DNA of 64,000 bases from Eledone cirrhosa (Eukaryota). How positions within the stretch are numbered: position 1 is the stretch's first letter; each line of letters starts with the position of its first letter. The stretch covers positions 1 through 64,000 of the forward strand of contig CAXHJY010000234.1 in NCBI GenBank assembly GCA_964016885.1. The letters run 5' to 3'. Of the stretch, positions 1-63,752 are shown piece by piece. Below the pieces are notes generated by a model. The model saw only the letters and a program-made list of their open reading frames with translations. It searched no databases and was not told the origin of the DNA. Position numbers and translations under genes: made by a program.

Positions 1-3816
<3,816 letters not shown>

Positions 3817-4420
3817 TCAGGTCACCAGTTGGTGCTACTGGTAACATGTATCCAGTACAACCTGTCCCATGGTCGGGTCGTTGGCGACTAAACTGGCAAC
3901 CCCACCAAGGTTTCTTGGTGAGGAGGGTGACTTTGGACATCCTGCAGGACTAAAAACAAGACCTGTCAAAGGGCAAAGGAGCTCTTAAGAGTCAATGGCC
4001 ATCCAAAATCACCGGGAGAGATGACCCCTTAGCCTTTGTCAAGCAGAATTCTAGGAGAAGGAAAACTCTGATATAACACCTGCAACTCTGATGGTATCCA
4101 ATGATGTTGACTTGTTCTTCTTTTTGGTAAATATCATCTTGGTTAAGAGAGTGGGACTGGCTTTGTGCAGTGCCTTTGCTCACTATAAAGCTTCACGGCA
4201 CAGGCATTGCTTTATATCTGGAGATCTCTCTGCACTTGTCGTCACAGGGTACCATGGCCCCAGCACTATGTGTCAATATTTGTCACAAGTGTAGTGTTTG
4301 TACCAGAGTTTTCAAGTCGCTGGCTGGACTAAGAGGTCACACTCGTTCACTGCATCGGTAGGGTTCTCCTATATGGATATAAAGTAGTGGCCGTACTCGA
4401 AAACGAGTTGGCAGCCACCA
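3817..4420 (+). mobile_element. Short internally deleted RTE-family non-autonomous element (5' UTR-like part joined to C-terminal C2H2 finger and 3' tail)
   Basis: 5' part carries RTE 5'-UTR-like motifs (gtcgttggcgactaa; ctaggagaaggaaaactctga). 3' part encodes [22 protein letters not shown]-stop, like the last finger of the RTE at 42085-42200. It ends gtggccgtactcgaaaacgagttggcagccacca, homologous to the reverse complement of 41793-41830. Confidence 0.75.
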
Positions 4421-9720
<5,300 letters not shown>

Positions 9721-9780
9721 CAAGGGCGGTGCCCCAGCATGGCCTCAGCCGGATGGCTGAAACAGGTAAAAGAGTAAAAT
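9721..9780 (+). mobile_element. Isolated 3' end of a SINE/retroposon inside microsatellite
   Basis: ggcggtgccccagcatggcctcagccggatggctgaaacaggtaaaagagtaaaa resembles the SINE tail at about 38280-38330 (ggccctggatggccgcaatctaatgactgaaaccattaaaaaag). Confidence 0.55.
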
Positions 9781-12339
<2,559 letters not shown>

Positions 12340-15085
12340 TATGTATAGTTGTATATATATATATGTATAGTTATGTATATATATATATATGTATAGTATG
12401 TATATATATATGTATATGTATAGTATAGTTGTATATATGATATATATATGTATAGTTTGTATATGTTATATATATGTATAGTGTATATATATATATATGT
12501 ATAGTTGTATATATATAATATGTATAGTGTATATATAGTATATATATTGTATATATATATATATGTATAGTTGTATATATATATGTATAGTTGTATATAT
12601 ATATATATGTATAGTTGTATATATATATATATGTATAGTTGTAATATATATATATATGTATAGTTGTATATATATATATATGTATAGTTGTATATATATA
12701 TATATGTATAGTTGTATATATATATATATGTATAGTTGTATATATATATATATGTATAGTTGTATATATATATATAGTATAGTTGTATATATATATATAT
12801 GTATAGTTGTATATATATATGTATAGTTGTATATATATATATATTGTATAGTTGTATATATATATATATGTATAGTTGTATATATATATATATGTATAGT
12901 TGTATATATATATATGTATAGTTGTATATATATATATATGTATAGTTGTAATATATATATATGTATAGTTGTATATATATATATATGTATAGTTGTATAT
13001 ATATATATATGTATAGTTGTATATATATATATGTATAGTTGTATATATATATATATGTATAGTTGTATATATATATATATATGTATAGTTGTATATATAT
13101 ATATATGTATAGTTGTATATATATATATATGTATAGTTGTATATATATATTATGTATAGTTGTTATATATATATATGTATAGTTGTATATATATATATAT
13201 GTATAGTTGTATATATATATATATGTAATAGTTGTATATATATATATATGTATAGTTGTATATATATATATATGTATAGTTGTATATATATATATATGTA
13301 TAGTTGTATATATATATATATGTATAGTTGTATATATATATATATGTATAGTTGTATATATATATATATGTATAGTTGTATATATATATATATGTATAGT
13401 TGTATATATATATATATGTATAGTTGTATATATATATATGTATAGTTGTATATATAATATATGTATAGTTGTATATAATATATGTATAGTTGTATATATA
13501 TATATATGTATAGTTGTATATATATATATATGTATAGTTGTACTATATATATATATGTATAGTTGTATATATATATATATGTATAGTTGTATATATATAT
13601 ATATGTATAGTTGTATAGTATATATATGTATAGTTGTATATATATATATGTATAGTTGTATATATATATATATGTATAGTTGTATATATATATATATATG
13701 TATAGTTGTATATATATATATATGTATAGTTGTATATATATATATGTATAGTTGTATATATATGTATAGTTGTATATATATGTATTATTTGTATATATAT
13801 GTATAGTTGTATATATATATATGTATATTTGTATATATATATATATGTATATTTGTATAATATATATATATGTATAGTTTGTATATATATATATATGTAT
13901 AGTTGTATATATATATATATGTATAGTTGTATATATATATATATGTATATTTGTATATATATATATATGTATATTTGTATATATATATATATGTATATTT
14001 GTATATATATATATGTATATTTGTATATATATATATGTATATTTTGTATATATATATATATGTATATTTGTATATATATATGTATATTTGTAATATATAT
14101 ATGTATATTGTATATATATATATATGTATATTTGTATATATATATATATATGTATATTTGTATATATATATATGTATATTTGTATATATATATATGTATA
14201 TTTGTATATATGTATATATGTATATTTGTATATATGTATATTGTATATATATATATATTATGTATATTTGTATATATATTTGTATTGTAATATATATATA
14301 TGTATATCTTGTATATATATATATATATGTATATTTGTATATATATATATATGTATATTTTGTATATATATATATATGTATATTCTGTATATATATATAT
14401 ATATGTCTATTGTATATATATATATATATGTATATTTGTATATTTGTTAATATCTATATATGTATATTTGTATATATATATAATATATAGTATATTTGAT
14501 ATATATATATATATGTATATTTGTATATATATATATATGTATATTTGTATATATATATATTTGTATATATATATATATGTATATTTGACTATATATATAA
14601 GTATAATTGTAATATATGTATAATATTGTATAATATAGTATATTTGTATATATATATATAATGTATATTTGTATATATGTATATTTATATATATGTATAT
14701 TTTGTATATATATATGTATATTTGTATATATATATATGTATATTTGTGTATATATATATATTGTAATATTTGTGTGTATATATATGTATATTTGTGTATA
14801 TAATGTATATTGTGTATATTTGTGTATATATATATATGTATATTTGTGTATATATATATATGTATATTTGTGTATATATATATATGTATATTTGTGTATA
14901 TATATCTATATGTATATTTGTGCTGTATATATATATATATGTATATTTGTGTATATATATATATATGTTATTTGTGTATATATATATGTATAGTTGTGTA
15001 TATATACATATGTATAGTTGTTTATATACATATGTATAGTTGTTTATATACATATGTATAGTTGTTTATATATATATATATATGT
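12340..15085. repeat. About 20-24 bp minisatellite derived from TA microsatellite
   Basis: Unit (ta)n-tgtatagttg, switching to (ta)n-tgtatatttg near 13800-13950 and to tgtatatttgtg near 14740. Confidence 0.92.
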
Positions 15086-15868
15086 ATCATCATCATCATC
15101 ATTGCTTAACGTCCATGTTCCACGCTTGCATGGGTTTGGACGGGAGTTTTCCCACTTGAGGCATGAGTGGTTGTCTTGCTTGCATAGGACTGTCTGGTGG
15201 GTTTTCTACAGCTGGATGCCCTTCCTAACACCAACCACATTTACAGTGTGGAACTGGGAGGTTTTTACCGTGTTACCTACACGGCCACATTACAGCGTGG
15301 ACTGTGCGTTTTTTGTCGTGACACCTACACGACCTCATTTGTTTCGGGCTGGATGTTGTGGTTCCAACATAACTTTACATTGAAAGAGGTGGTGTGGATG
15401 GGGTGGGGGTGGTGTGACGGGGCGTATTTTGTTAGAGATGCCTACTGACTGTAGTAGGTTTCACTTTGTACTTAGGTAAGGCGGGTCTTCTCTATTACTG
15501 TGTAGCGCCAAAGATCTCGGTCCAGTGACATTGTCTTGGGGAGGTGTAAGTGTGTGAGGTCGGAATTTATCAGGTCGTCCCAAGTTTTTCTGGGTCTGCC
15601 TACTCCGTGGCTACCGTCTATTTTTATTGCCCTGCACTTTTTTTATACAGCTGTCGTCTTTCATGCACATCAAGTGACCATACCAACGTAGTCTTCTCTC
15701 GAGTAAACATCTGATCCCTCTTATTTCTAATTTTTCCCTTAGTTCGTTTATGCTTTGCCGTTCACGTATATTACTATTACACATCCAGCAGAGCATGCAA
15801 GCTTCATTCCTCTCCAGTCTGCGTATATCCTCTGCACAGGTCTCACTGCCATGTAACATTGCTCTTTG
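15086..15868 (-). mobile_element. 5'-truncated RTE LINE copy (family A, same as 38848-41436)
   Basis: Minus-strand AMLHGSET...EDIRRLERNEACML...RRLRWYGH is nearly identical to the C-terminus of ORF 40419-41048; full 3' UTR and (GAT)n tail at 15086-15102. Confidence 0.92.
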
Positions 15869-21234: not shown

Positions 21235-21945
21235 TGTAGGTGTCACAACAAAAATCACCCAGTCCACACTCTAAAGTGGTCGTGTAGGTGTCACAACAAA
21301 AATCACCCAGTCCACACTCTAAAGTGGTTGTGTCGGCGTCACAACAAAAAGCACCGTCCACACTGTGAAGTGGTTGTGTAGGCGTCGTGTCAAAAAGCAC
21401 CCTGTCCACACTATAAAGTGGTCGTGTAGGTGTCACAACAAAAAGAACCCTGTCCACACTATAAAGTGGTCGTGTAGGTGTCACAACAAAAAGAACCCTG
21501 TCCACACTATAAAGTGGTCGCGTAGGTGTCACAACAAAAAGCACCCTGTCCACACTATTAAGTGGTCGTGTAGGTGTCACAACAAAAAGAATCCTGTCCA
21601 CACTATAAAGTGGTCGTGTAGGTGTCACAACAAAAAGAACCCTGTCCACACTATTAAGTGGTCGTGTAGGTGTCACAACAAAAAGAACCCTGTCCACACT
21701 ATTAAGTGGTCGTGTAGGTGTCACAACAAAAAGAACCCTGTCCACACTATAAAGTGGTCGTGTAGGTGTCACGACAAAAAGAATCCTGTCCACACTATAA
21801 AGTGGTCGTGTAGGTGTCACAACAAAAAGAATCCTGTCCACACTATAAAGTGGTCGTGTAGGTGTCACAACAAAAAGAACCCTGTCCACACTATTAAGTG
21901 GTCGTGTAGGTGTCACGACAAAAAGCACCCGGTACACTGTAACTG
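21235..21945 (+). repeat. 48-bp tandem minisatellite (~14-15 units) expanded from the RTE-A 3' UTR
   Basis: Unit tgtcacaacaaaaagaaccctgtccacactataaagtggtcgtgtagg; the 16-aa periodicity of ORFs 21200-21967 and 21365-21958 agrees with 48 bp. Confidence 0.95.
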
Positions 21946-33267: not shown

Positions 33268-33718
33268 CATCATCATCATCGTTTAACAGCCATTTTTACA
33301 TGCTTCCATGTGTTACTTTGATACTTTGATAGGTTTCAGCCAGTATTGGCTCAGGCCATGTTTAACTTAATAGCACCACCTGGCAAACAGGTTGCCAAAT
33401 TATAAGAAAATTTAGGTCAGGTGACCATGTCATGCTTATGTGGATTTGTATTCTGGCTTGATGCCCTTCCTAACACCAACCACATTACAGAGTGGACTGG
33501 GTGCTTTTTATCATGGCACTGAAAAGACAATCCAACAGGGTTGACTGGATGCTTTTTGTCATGTCATCAACACAGCCTCCTTACAGGGTTGACTGGGTAC
33601 TTTATGTTGTGTCACAAGCACGACCACTTTACAGTGTGGACTGGGTGCTTTTTTTTGTGTCACCAACATGACCCCCGCCACAGAATGGACTGGGTGCTCT
33701 TTTTGTTGTCGTACTGGA
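33268..33718 (-). mobile_element. RTE-A 3'-end derivative with degenerate 48-bp units and a nested CR1/L2 3' tip (33315-33390)
   Basis: (CAT)n tail at 33268; gatgcccttcctaacaccaacc at about 33460. 33330-33388 is the reverse complement of the LINE 3' end 51353-51405, with an (atcaaagt)2 tail. Confidence 0.7.
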
Positions 33719-51414: not shown

Positions 51415-54002
<2,588 letters not shown>

Positions 54003-54062
54003 TATTTTGATTTAACACTTCACTGCTCGCAAGTGTTTTTTAAACTTCATATCATGTCTCCC

Positions 54063-59776: not shown

Positions 59777-60429
59777 TATTTCAAATTAATTAACGGAGTT
59801 AAAAACTTGCATTAATCCCCTATAATTTAGGGAGCTCAAGGAGTATATATATTCCGGTCTCTTTATAAATCAACACATATCTCTATGTTGATTTATATAT
59901 ATATATTTATCGTTGTTGTGGTATAAGTATGGCTACTGCCTTCAGCTGTTATTCTTGGTGTCATACCTTACAACTGTTGTGTTTTACTCTGGGCAATAAT
60001 GTTTAGCTTCTCAATCCATTGAGTGCTTTGTGATTGCCTCAAACTACTCGATTAATACCTGCTATATGGTGGCTACAACTTTGATTGATATCCAATATTA
60101 TATATATGCCAAAAATAAGCAGAAAACAACAAAGCAAACAATACAGTACAATTCAGATATGAATTATTTTTGATATAGTAAGAAAAGACTAGTCTTTTAT
60201 CAGAAGATGAAATGAGAAATAAAATAAGAAATAGCAAGATAGAGAAGAGTGAGAAGAGGAAAAAATGTTCTGAATCTGTGTGTTTCACTGGGTGAGTCTA
60301 ACAGACATGCTCAGGTCCTCATGTATGTATATATATATATATATATGTATATACATATATGTATATATATATGTCGTTTCTGAATTTGTTTAGCAAGATT
60401 CTTTATCTGAAAACGTGTGTTGAAACCGA

Positions 60430-61101
60430 TATTGTTATACTTTGGGAGGGTCATGTTGCCAATAAGAAACACACGCACCAGTTGCTTTCACTTCAATTTA
60501 ATTTATTATATATTTATAAATTTACAAATTTATAAATTTCTGGTTGGTTGGTTGGTTCCACAACCAGATAGTTGTTTATATATATATAGTCATAGTTCTT
60601 TCGTCACACACTCTGTGACCTCTTCAGTGACTGCGGATTTCTTTCTTCGTTTCTGTGCCTTTCCTTTCTTCTATCCTACGCCATCAAGAAGAAAGGAAAG
60701 GCACAGAAACGAAGAAAGAAATCCCCAGTCACTGAAGAGGTCACAGAGTGTGTGACGAAAGAACTATGACTATATATATATAAACAACTATCTGGTTGTG
60801 GAACCAACCAACCAACCAGAAATTTATCCTACGCCAAACAAAATGGCGTAGGATAGAAGAAAGGAAAGGCACAGAAATGAAGAAAGAAATCCCCAGTCAC
60901 TGAAGAAGTCACAGAGTGTGTGACGAAAGAACTATGACTATATATATATAAACAACTATCTGGTTGTGGAACCAACCAACCAACCAGAAATTTATAAATT
61001 TGTAAATTTATAAATATATAATAAATTAAATTAAATTGAAGTGAAAGCAACTGGTGCGTGTGTTTCTTATTGGCAACATGACCCTCCCAAAGTATAACAA
61101 T
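60430..61101. mobile_element. Inverted plus tandem duplication carrying three hammerhead-like motifs; Penelope-like non-autonomous element
   Basis: 60430-60683 is the reverse complement of 60843-61101; 60688-60825 is an extra partial copy. Motif agtca-CTGAAGA-g-gtcac..gtgac-GAAA-gaac-TA-tgact. Confidence 0.7.
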
Positions 61102-61132
61102 ATATATATATATATGTATATATATATATGTA

Positions 61133-61178
<46 letters not shown>

Positions 61179-63570
61179 CAGTGAACACAAATGTTGATTA
61201 GCAAACAGAAGTATACAATAATGAAAGTATTTGAAAAAATTAAAATAATCAGCAAGAAGAGAGAAAAAGGTAGGAATGAAGAAAATAAAAATAGGAGGAA
61301 GGGAGAACAAACTCTGCAGTCCATCTCAGATGTGTCCTACAAACAAGTTGGTGAAAGCATTGCTTCATAAAACAGCCAGCAACACCTGCTGCATCAGCTA
61401 TTCCACCTCACAGGGCTTCTTCCTCAGGCAAAAGACCCTCCTCCTGATTTTGCAGAGGAAACTGGTACTCCAAGAACTGAAGAGATATGAAGTCACCATC
61501 CATAGCACATGAAGGAATCTGTTTAGTCAATGCCCTGGTTATCTAAAGCATATTTTATGAGACAAAATGAAAATAGTCCACTTCTGCTAGTTTATTTATT
61601 TTACGTTTTCATATTTATTTATTTTATTACCTATATATTTATATACAAGCACCTGCTTTGTAATAACAATGTACTTTGCAACTTAATTGTTATTCTGGTG
61701 ACTTTAGTTAATCTTTAAACTAATTACTAGCTTTGCTTACTACTAAAGTAGTGAGGGGAAGCATTTGTTATATTCTACTATGATATAGCAATAAATAAAC
61801 TATATTCATATATGTCACACCCTTACAAGCACGCAGGGAAACGCAGACGTAAAATGATGATGATGATGATGATGTCACTAGTACATAACCCATTGTTATA
61901 TGGTTAGAGTAACTAATATTTGGATTTTTCACTTCACCAAAGCTATGTTTGGGAATATGTACACGCATACACGTGACTGAATACATGCTTTTTTCTCTAA
62001 AAGATTTTATTTCTCATGCCATCTTCTGATGGACAAACATCTGAAACCTTAACACTCTTTTCCTACTACATCAAGCATTAAACTAATATATACCTTCATT
62101 GTGCTGTATTGTTGTCCCCCCCCCCCCCCCCCCACACGCGCGCGTGCTCTCGCTCGCTCTCTCTCTCTCTCTCTCAATAAAACCATTTACAACCTTCAAG
62201 GCAAACACCATATTCATGATAAGAAAGTTGATAAAAACAACAGAGTTTAGGGAATCAAATGATGAACAACATCAAGAAAAAACTGGCTCTTTTGATGTCA
62301 ACCCACATGAGACTGCCTCTGGTTCTATAATATTAAATTTCCTGTTTTAAAGTATTCATATCTAAATTAAGCCTCCAATTATAATATGTAAGAAACTTTG
62401 TGATAAATTATGTTCTAAATTCTAAATGTATGAACTCCTGGTGGAATCATAGTGGTGCCGTAGTGTCATACAGTGTTTCTTGGACATTTTCTAAACCTGG
62501 TGGAGCTCATCTTCTCTTTAGGTCTGAACACAGCATATTTCTTCCAAAGAAGCATAGAGAGTGTGACAGAGAAAAAGTGAGAAAGGTATAGAGGAAGAAT
62601 TGACACCAGTACTGGACTGGTACTTTTTTTTATCAACCTCGAAAGAATGAAAGGCAAAGTTGACCATGGCGAGATTTGAACTCAGAATGTTCTAAATACA
62701 AGCTAAATAAAAAAAATAAATGTAACCCTTTTACTAACCCCATTAATACCAAACCACCTGAAAATTTGTGGTATTTTATGCAAAACTGTTTGTTATAAAA
62801 GTGTGTTTGTATTTATCTAAAAACCTTCCATTGTAATTCTGTGAGGAACTTGAAGTTATGTTCCAAACACTAGCTTAATAATCTGACAGTTAAGAGAGTA
62901 TTGTAGTTTGCTTAAAACATTCTGTTATTTGAAAGCAATACAAAATGGATGGTAGATTTTGGAATAAATTGAAGGCAACAAAGATGTTGGTGTGTCACCT
63001 ATTATTTTATTTACCTGTCCTAATATTTCAGATCTAGAAACCCTTTGTCAGAAGACTATAATAAGAAACTGAAAGCTCGTGCTTTTGTTGTCGTTACTGG
63101 TTCACCACTTTTCTTTGTTTGTTTGTAAGCGGTGGTCTATTTATAGTTGCCGGAAAGTTAATTCACTAAATCTCCAAATTCTTGATTATTTTGAAAATAA
63201 TTTGAAAATCCTCAACAGTAATAGGGTAACAAAAGAGATGTAAATGCTTCTCAAAATTAATGGAAACATGGAACATTTCCTTAGAAGTAGGATTAGGAAA
63301 AGTAAATATAAATGCACACAGTACACTCTGTAAAGTGGTTGGTGATAGGAAGATAATCTATCTATAGAAAACTTATCAAATAAAGGATAGGAAGGACTCT
63401 TTGTGTCAAAGACATGACAACCTTTCTAGCCTTGATGTCATGATTAAATGTACCTGGTGCATTCTGGAGAGTGTCACAATGCATATAAGCGAGATGCTGG
63501 CCCCTAGCCTGTCTGAGAGATCAGTAGCTCCATTTAAGTACTGACGATCTAGGGAAAACACATTAAATAA

Positions 63571-63752
63571 TTGTTTCTACTTTTGGCACAAGGCCAGCAA
63601 TTACCCAGTACATTATTGGTACTTTATTTTATCGACCCCGTAAGGATGAAAGGCAAAGTTAACTTCGGCGGGATTTGAACTCAGACTGTAAAGGGACGTA
63701 ACTATGCTAGAAAGCATGGCGTCCGACCCTCTACCGATACTGCCAATCCACA
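63571..63752 (-). mobile_element. tRNA-derived SINE, full length
   Basis: Very similar to 28833-29012. Confidence 0.88.

What the first reader, a model, noticed from the sequence alone, without database searches (positions are those of the whole stretch)
60430..61101. Three minimal hammerhead motifs in an inverted/tandem Penelope-like structure within a TA tract
Seen: copies at 60588-60632 (minus), 60727-60771 (+) and 60895-60939 (+). Each has stem I agtca/tgact, CTGAAGA, stem II gtcac/gtgac preceded by one extra purine, GAAA and a tiny stem III (gaac) before TA. The layout is one inverted unit followed by two direct units, with near-identical arms and a small junction hairpin (atcctacgcca/tggcgtaggat, 60826-60854). 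Known: Penelope-like elements have pseudo-LTRs with minimal type I hammerheads that act as dimers, and often an inverted 5' copy; retrozymes are non-coding tandem hammerhead units. Inference: a recent non-autonomous PLE or retrozyme insertion that could release a ~168-nt monomer or circular RNA and long dsRNA.
Basis: partly seen in the sequence, partly recalled or inferred. Interest (0 to 1): 0.72.

Follow-up and report, generated by a model that had tools for sequence, protein, structure and literature searches.

The report
Penelope retroelement stub with three hammerheads
This is a short, rearranged leftover of a very abundant Penelope-type jumping gene, with three copies of its hammerhead motif (a predicted self-cutting RNA), likely pasted into a TA repeat in one event; it is an ordinary member of a known kind, and its two-copy tandem occurs only here, so it is not a spreading retrozyme family.

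Summary
The three motifs, the layout and the junction hairpin are real; 0 motifs in 100 shuffled windows. The insertion spans 60373-61103 between two (TA)n runs. It is made wholly of pieces of the pseudo-LTR of a 4.26-kb coding Penelope-like element: telomerase-like RT, CX4CxxC linker, C-terminal GIY-YIG. The 35-nt ribozyme core has 8,461 exact copies in the genome. Both junctions occur once, so the 168-nt tandem is a one-off, not a retrozyme family. One arm ends with a ~56-nt tail and the other without, as in 40 of 42 sampled head-to-head pairs; this suggests priming from both cut strands. Core and stems are nearly invariant while loops vary, but no compensatory changes were seen. Cleavage is untested; the dimer fold lies 11 kcal/mol above the minimum. 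No read spanned the inversion. All general features are in print, and this scan found the same anatomy before, in this genome and in others. New member of a known kind; low interest.

The parts
60324..60372 (.). Left (TA)n target tract
60373..60684 (-). Left arm: pLTR copy from unit position ~12 to the long 3' end (~335), including the tail
   Evidence: blastn to a natural full unit (L034): u12-335, 93%
60373..60428 (-). ~56-nt tail, which is the start of the parent ORF beyond the short end
   Evidence: the same sequence continues into the ORF in L034; 12,083 exact read-throughs into the tail in the genome
60588..60632 (-). Minimal type I hammerhead 1; predicted cut between 60593 and 60592
60685..60686 (.). 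Inversion junction with 2 extra bases; unique in the genome
60687..60827 (+). Middle piece: partial pLTR copy (unit positions 24-162), likely a re-copied segment after a template switch
60727..60771 (+). Minimal type I hammerhead 2; predicted cut after 60766
60825..60836 (-). 12-nt inverted piece that starts where the left arm ends; 3-nt microhomology with the middle piece; forms the junction hairpin with 60844-60854; junction unique in the genome
60836..61103 (+). Right arm: pLTR copy from unit position 5 to the short 3' end (275)
   Evidence: 13,652 exact short ends followed by TA in the genome
60895..60939 (+). Minimal type I hammerhead 3 (extra purine is A rather than G); predicted cut after 60934
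61078..61103 (+). First codons of the parent ORF (MTLPKYNN...)
61100..61175 (.). Right (TA)n target tract

Best explanation
The stretch 60373-61103 is a head-to-head set of three partial pseudo-LTR copies of a high-copy coding Penelope-like retrotransposon (Neptune/Nematis-type linker) lying in a (TA)n tract, likely made in one insertion in which both cut target strands primed reverse transcription and one strand likely switched template. Shown: every base derives from the parent's pLTR; the arms end at the family's two fixed 3' end points, one each; the junctions are unique. Inferred: the endonuclease nicked both strands of (TA)n; one 3' end primed at the long (tail) site and the other at the short site of an uncleaved RNA; both cDNAs ran to near the RNA's 5' end. 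The right-hand cDNA then copied 12 nt from the end of the left-hand cDNA, jumped back to the RNA through a 3-nt microhomology, re-copied 141 nt, and joined the left cDNA. That would give the 168-nt tandem and the small hairpin as a one-off. The hammerheads are passengers here; in the parent they are likely functional, dimer- or protein-assisted ribozymes.
For: Parent element: 4,260-bp unit in a tandem array (L034/L041) with a 921-aa RT-EN frame. Pfam RVT_1 E=2e-4 and GIY-YIG E=4e-4, both below the curated cut-offs. AlphaFold model pLDDT 92.7; its 9 best Foldseek hits are telomerase RTs. Copy number: 8,461 and 11,314 exact matches. Ends: 72 short, 62 long and 1 other among 135 arms; 116 of 135 directly followed by (AT)3; 40 of 42 head-to-head pairs mixed, p=2e-10. 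37 of 40 mixed in an overlapping sample listed by exact patterns, against 2 of 6 for tail-to-tail neighbours. Genome-wide 13,652 short ends and 12,083 tail read-throughs, 460 matches continuing into the ORF. Paired arms differ by a median 0.8% against 4.3% for random arms. 121 of 135 arms reach upstream of the cleavage site; 17 of 57 resolvable 5' ends lie at unit -5..17, as do both window arms. Junctions unique. Literature: inverted pLTR with a one-sided tail (PMC8557442, PMC3846280); two internal RT start sites, both strands extended, and uncleaved RNA as template (PMC11167929).
Against: The order of events is read from one locus. The duplication could have arisen after insertion by slippage or repair. 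The right arm carries two substitutions and 5 extra bases not shared by the other two pieces; each substitution occurs in other copies but never both together, so one template is not proven. 2 of 42 and 3 of 40 pairs break the end rule. The two pair samples overlap and come from the first 63 Mb of one contig. Paired-arm similarity could also reflect gene conversion. The absence of 5' ends at the cleavage site (0 of 57, 1.5 expected) is not significant alone. No target-site duplication can be read in (TA)n. No fully intact single ORF was seen among the copies read (the L034/L041 array is frameshifted). No reads spanned the inversion.
Confidence: 0.8

Rival explanations
1. Non-autonomous retrozyme: the 168-nt hammerhead-to-hammerhead unit is a mobile family that is cut out, circularised and re-inserted.
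For: Two direct hammerheads 168 nt apart meet the two-unit criterion of bioRxiv 10.64898/2026.07.22.740005. A nested double-hammerhead can be drawn. Earlier notes report real retrozyme-like families in this genome.
Against: The unit junction occurs once in the genome. The array has only 1.8 copies. No short same-strand tandem among 109 sampled sites. The hammerhead is the minimal type, which cleaves poorly in vitro (PMC4209133), whereas retrozymes carry canonical ones (PMC7229834). The dimer is 11 kcal/mol above the minimum fold.
Confidence: 0.04
2. The inverted pair is one ordinary insertion, but the middle piece arose later by a local duplication (replication slippage or repair at the palindrome centre).
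For: Long palindromes are unstable (general knowledge). The middle piece is as close to the left arm (1 difference in 141) as to the right (2 in 141). Short microhomology at the junction.
Against: The 12-nt inverted piece begins exactly where the left arm ends, which a switch onto the other cDNA's end explains directly. Other copies show similar internal switches.
Confidence: 0.12
3. The rearranged centre is an assembly artefact on a small contig (C261).
For: No record in 4 runs spanned the inversion. Such structures often trouble assemblies (PMC8557442).
Against: The three pieces differ at several positions. The ends obey the family rule, and the same head-to-head form is common on the large contigs. 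The runs laid were unitigs or RAD-seq and could not be expected to span it.
Confidence: 0.04

Closest known systems
C-terminal endonuclease Penelope-like elements of the Neptune/Nematis type (Craig et al. 2021, PMC8557442; passages, abstract and supplement parts 54-55 of 59 read)
   Same: RT plus C-terminal GIY-YIG with CX2-5CxxC linker and CCHH motif; pLTR with hammerhead; partial tandems; inverted 5'-truncated copy; one-sided tail; (TA)n target.
   Different: The tail is ~56-60 nt, not 30-40. The endonuclease linker has the short Nematis-like spacing (7 aa) while the RT motifs look Neptune-like by eye. About 70 extra residues lie between RT motifs 3 and 4. The clade was not resolved by a tree.
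Minimal hammerheads of metazoan PLEs (Cervera and de la Pena 2014, PMC4209133; parts 1-2 of 4 read)
   Same: 5-bp helix I, 6-bp helix II with G10.1-C11.1, an extra nucleotide between 9 and 10.1, tiny helix III needing a dimer; opposite-strand pairs 100-700 bp apart; thousands of solo copies.
   Different: Here the motif is very homogeneous; loop III is AA or GA rather than a true palindrome; no octopus example turned up in the passages read.
Poseidon PAc of Anolis (Frangieh et al. 2024, PMC11167929; parts 1-2 of 4 read)
   Same: Two internal start sites inside the start of the ORF define the tail; both strands are extended; AT-rich target; uncleaved RNA is the main template.
   Different: Different clade. 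PAc starts at sites not homologous to the target, whereas both end points here finish in ATAT, which matches (TA)n. A strict one-long-one-short pairing is not stated in the parts read.
Non-LTR retrozymes (PMC7229834, passages read; bioRxiv 10.64898/2026.07.22.740005, part 1 of 5 and passages read)
   Same: Short direct repeat with a type I hammerhead in each unit; derived from a pLTR.
   Different: Single occurrence, 1.8 units, minimal rather than canonical hammerhead, and no RNA evidence.

Membership tests
EN+ Penelope-like element (parent family) | RT closest to telomerase RT | tested here: met
   The 9 best Foldseek hits of the model are telomerase RTs, best E=3e-8; weak RVT_1 hit
EN+ Penelope-like element (parent family) | C-terminal GIY-YIG endonuclease with CCHH motif | tested here: met
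   GIY-YIG E=4e-4, 21.1 bits, below the cut-off of 22.6; motifs VVYSIRCTEGQC..YIGET..EH..QH and RQITEA..PKLN
EN+ Penelope-like element (parent family) | Tandem organisation forming pLTRs that hold a hammerhead and overlap the ORF start | tested here: met
   L034/L041 array with a 4,260-bp period
EN+ Penelope-like element (parent family) | Inverted 5'-truncated copy and one-sided tail | tested here: met
   window arms; 40 of 42 pairs
EN+ Penelope-like element (parent family) | Intact single ORF / present activity | tested here: inconclusive
   RT-EN frames open for 921 aa; frameshift upstream in the array; L036 reads through that region but breaks later
Neptune or Nematis clade | CX2-5CxxC linker before GIY-YIG | tested here: met
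   CIDKKCITC
Neptune or Nematis clade | Placement in an RT tree with named references | not tested
   No named reference sequences came from the sequence tools; compared by eye with Figs S1-S2 of PMC8557442
Hydra clade | CCHH absent, CxCX5C linker, DKT motif | tested here: not met
   CCHH present, CX4CxxC, DKS
Naiad/Chlamys | N-terminal endonuclease, no canonical hammerhead | tested here: not met
Minimal type I hammerhead | CUGANGA, GAAA and NUH core with helices I and II | tested here: met
Minimal type I hammerhead | Core and stems conserved relative to loops | tested here: met
   68 arms: columns with >=5% minor allele 0 of 33 (core and stems), 4 of 10 (free positions, p=0.002), 16 of 157 (rest of the non-coding pLTR, p=0.04); copies share ancestry
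Minimal type I hammerhead | Compensatory changes in stems | tested here: inconclusive
   The stems hardly vary (8 of 1,492 cells), so no covariation could be seen
Minimal type I hammerhead | Self-cleavage | not testable with these tools
   needs an in vitro assay
Non-LTR retrozyme | Multi-copy family of the short unit | tested here: not met
   junction unique
Non-LTR retrozyme | Expressed linear or circular monomer | not testable with these tools
   no RNA run listed

The most novel reading that the evidence does not exclude
The insertion is a snapshot of retrozyme birth: during two-sided priming a single template switch placed two pLTR hammerheads 168 nt apart behind the element's own likely transcription start, creating a dimer that cuts out and circularises a new non-coding unit the parent enzyme could spread. 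The locus would then record both the two-strand priming step of Penelope-like elements and the first step from pLTR to retrozyme.
Probability: 0.08. Interest if true: 0.6.

Novelty: new member of a known kind. Interest (0 to 1): 0.24.

Why it matters
As a locus it matters little: it is one of more than ten thousand pLTR stubs. The family offers a large natural record of how Penelope-like elements insert. The near-strict pairing of one tailed and one tail-less end, the matching of paired arms and the pile-up of 5' ends upstream of the ribozyme give testable predictions for the unresolved second-strand step. The 168-nt tandem is a ready-made construct for asking whether an accidental pLTR duplication can become a retrozyme.

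Tried and rejected
Rfam scan: no hammerhead family among 37 matches; the miRNA hits only reflect the palindrome. Sequencing runs: no RNA holder listed. Reads: 4 runs laid on 60560-60800; none spanned the inversion, which proves nothing for unitigs or RAD-seq; the second junction was not examined in reads. Empty-site search with the left flank: only other repeats, no paralogous empty site. PDB sequence search: only weak RT hits. VIA-align job was unfinished when last polled and is not used. 5' ends beyond unit -137 could not be mapped because the alignment broke at a subfamily indel, so only 57 of 135 arms enter that count. Rejected: Hydra and Naiad clades (motifs), retrozyme family (unique junction), chance motif (shuffles). 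Literature searches found no paper on this octopus-type family or on a strict one-long-one-short rule; the library lacks most subscription papers and Repbase, and bioRxiv supplements were closed, so this does not show it is unpublished.

Full report
Observation. The three motifs lie at the stated coordinates and are the only hits of a minimal-hammerhead descriptor in the window; 100 block-shuffled windows gave none. Stem II is 6 bp with a 5-nt loop. Helix III is two pairs around a 2-nt loop that cannot close in one molecule, and the cleavage triplet is CUA. Rfam gave no hammerhead hit. The direct repeat (period 168, 98.6%) and the inverted arms (96.9%) are as described.

What it comes from. 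A search of the own genome (3.0 Gb) returned many near-identical copies. Several continue upstream into a coding frame. Longer stretches showed a tandem array with a 4,260-bp unit on C6 (L034, L041), in which the window's sequence is the repeat between ORFs, that is, the pseudo-LTR. The protein has weak Pfam RT and GIY-YIG hits, both under the curated cut-offs. A model built on 97 sequences has pLDDT 92.7, and its 9 best structural matches are telomerase RTs. The best named homologue is an Octopus vulgaris protein at 67%. The endonuclease is C-terminal with a CX4CxxC linker and the CCHH motif, which excludes Poseidon, Hydra and Naiad as defined in PMC8557442 and leaves Neptune or Nematis; I did not resolve which. 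No fully intact ORF was among the copies read: the array is frameshifted in a low-complexity region, and L036 reads through that region but breaks later. The hammerhead core has 8,461 exact 35-nt matches, and a neighbouring 25-mer has 11,314.

Anatomy. Against a natural unit the window is: unit 12-335 on the minus strand, 2 extra bases, unit 24-162 on plus, a 12-nt inverted piece, and unit 5-275 on plus. No other part of the element lies in the window. Both junctions occur exactly once in the genome. Among 109 hammerhead sites sampled on C1, the closest same-strand pairs were 2.4 and 4.1 kb apart; among L002-L030 there were same-strand pairs at 447-2,038 nt, mostly with more diverged copies. 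The 168-nt tandem is therefore not a family.

The end rule. Of 135 terminal arms from the first 63 Mb of C1, 72 end at unit ~275, 62 at ~335 and 1 elsewhere; 116 are directly followed by (AT)3. Of 42 head-to-head pairs, 40 have one of each (p=2e-10). Seventeen of those loci were fetched because they held several nearby hammerheads, nearly all opposite-strand pairs, not for their end type. A second, overlapping sample of 180 exactly matched ends gave 37 of 40 mixed pairs within 6 kb, against 2 of 6 for tail-to-tail neighbours. Genome-wide there are 13,652 short ends and 12,083 read-throughs into the tail, with 460 matches that run on into the ORF. Paired arms differ by a median 0.8% against 4.3% for random arms. 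The window obeys the rule. A one-sided tail is described in PMC8557442 and PMC3846280, and PMC11167929 shows in vitro that the tail lies between two internal start sites and that both strands are extended. I infer that both nicked strands prime, one at each site.

5' ends. 121 of 135 arms extend upstream of the predicted cleavage site, so their templates were uncut. Of 57 arms whose 5' end could be placed, 17 stop at unit -5..17 (p=1.5e-7 against a uniform spread) and none at the cleavage site (1.5 expected, not significant). Both window arms stop in that cluster. It is likely the transcription start; the YY1-like and NRF1-like labels for the motifs there are recalled and come from no call.

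The centre. The 12-nt inverted piece begins where the left arm ends and shares 3 nt with the end of the middle piece. The simplest account is that the right-hand cDNA reached the RNA's 5' end, copied a little of the left cDNA's end, jumped back to the RNA, re-copied 141 nt and then joined. A later local duplication is not excluded. The right arm has two substitutions and 5 extra bases of its own.

Is the ribozyme real? In 68 arms chosen through a motif outside the ribozyme, minor letters make up 2 of 748 core cells, 8 of 1,492 stem cells, 66 of 678 free cells and 352 of 10,366 cells in the rest of the non-coding pLTR. Reads of one RAD-seq run show common variants at N7, loop II, loop III, position 17 and the outermost stem I pair, plus one minor stem II change. 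This fits selection on the parent's ribozyme, but the copies are related and no compensatory change was seen. The common loop III variant (30 of 68 arms) would give tandem G-A pairs in a dimer, -1.7 against +2.4 kcal/mol for the window's form, which fits dimer geometry. For the window's own dimer, the double-hammerhead fold is -53.2 against -64.3 kcal/mol for the minimum (nearest-neighbour model, no tertiary contacts). A transcript through the whole insertion pairs the left arm with the right arm and isolates the middle hammerhead. Minimal hammerheads cleave poorly even as dimers (PMC4209133), and 8 of 9 Xenopus dimer constructs did not cleave (bioRxiv 10.64898/2026.07.22.740005). No RNA run was listed.

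Verdict. A real and tidy but ordinary stub of a Neptune/Nematis-type Penelope-like element. Earlier notes of this scan describe the same anatomy and end rule in this genome and in others; none matched this sequence or place. They are unchecked leads, not support. Novelty: new member of a known kind. Interest 0.24.

Noticed in passing
L034:2061-4400 (-), model residues ~230-365: The parent RT has 133 residues from motif 3 to the GAAIG of motif 4, and 110 of 120 homologues have 132-138. By my count from Fig S1 of PMC8557442, canonical C-terminal-EN elements have about 63 and human TERT about 121. So this widespread group has an insertion of the size and place of the telomerase insertion-in-fingers domain, which that paper ties to N-terminal-EN elements and some Coprina. 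Homology was not tested.
   Followed up: partly
L034/L041 (G000:C6:65201600-65219000): Array of at least four near-identical 4.26-kb units; the three whose ORF start was read share a frameshift in an N/T/H-rich low-complexity stretch, which recalls the N-rich inserts of rotifer Penelopes (PMC3846280).
   Followed up: partly
pLTR position matching window 60930 and 60934: Family variants at loop III (AA or GA, 38:30) and at position 17 (A or U, 56:12) mark subfamilies; GA would stabilise a dimer helix III.
   Followed up: partly
G000:C1:132947043-132947576: 46-bp tandem array (at least 12 units) made from the long-end region of the element.
   Followed up: no
window 1-15087 and 51418-54005: Very long AT-dinucleotide arrays (15 kb and 2.6 kb) with strong GC skew.
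   Followed up: no
window 21235-21937, 15234-15339, 33472-33703: Three arrays with a 48-bp period that look related by eye.
   Followed up: no
window 62606-62690 and 63605-63689: Two 82%-alike copies of another short dispersed repeat, SINE-like by recall.
   Followed up: no
window 60000-60262: The left flank is itself repetitive (2,781 candidates), so the element sits among older repeats.
   Followed up: partly
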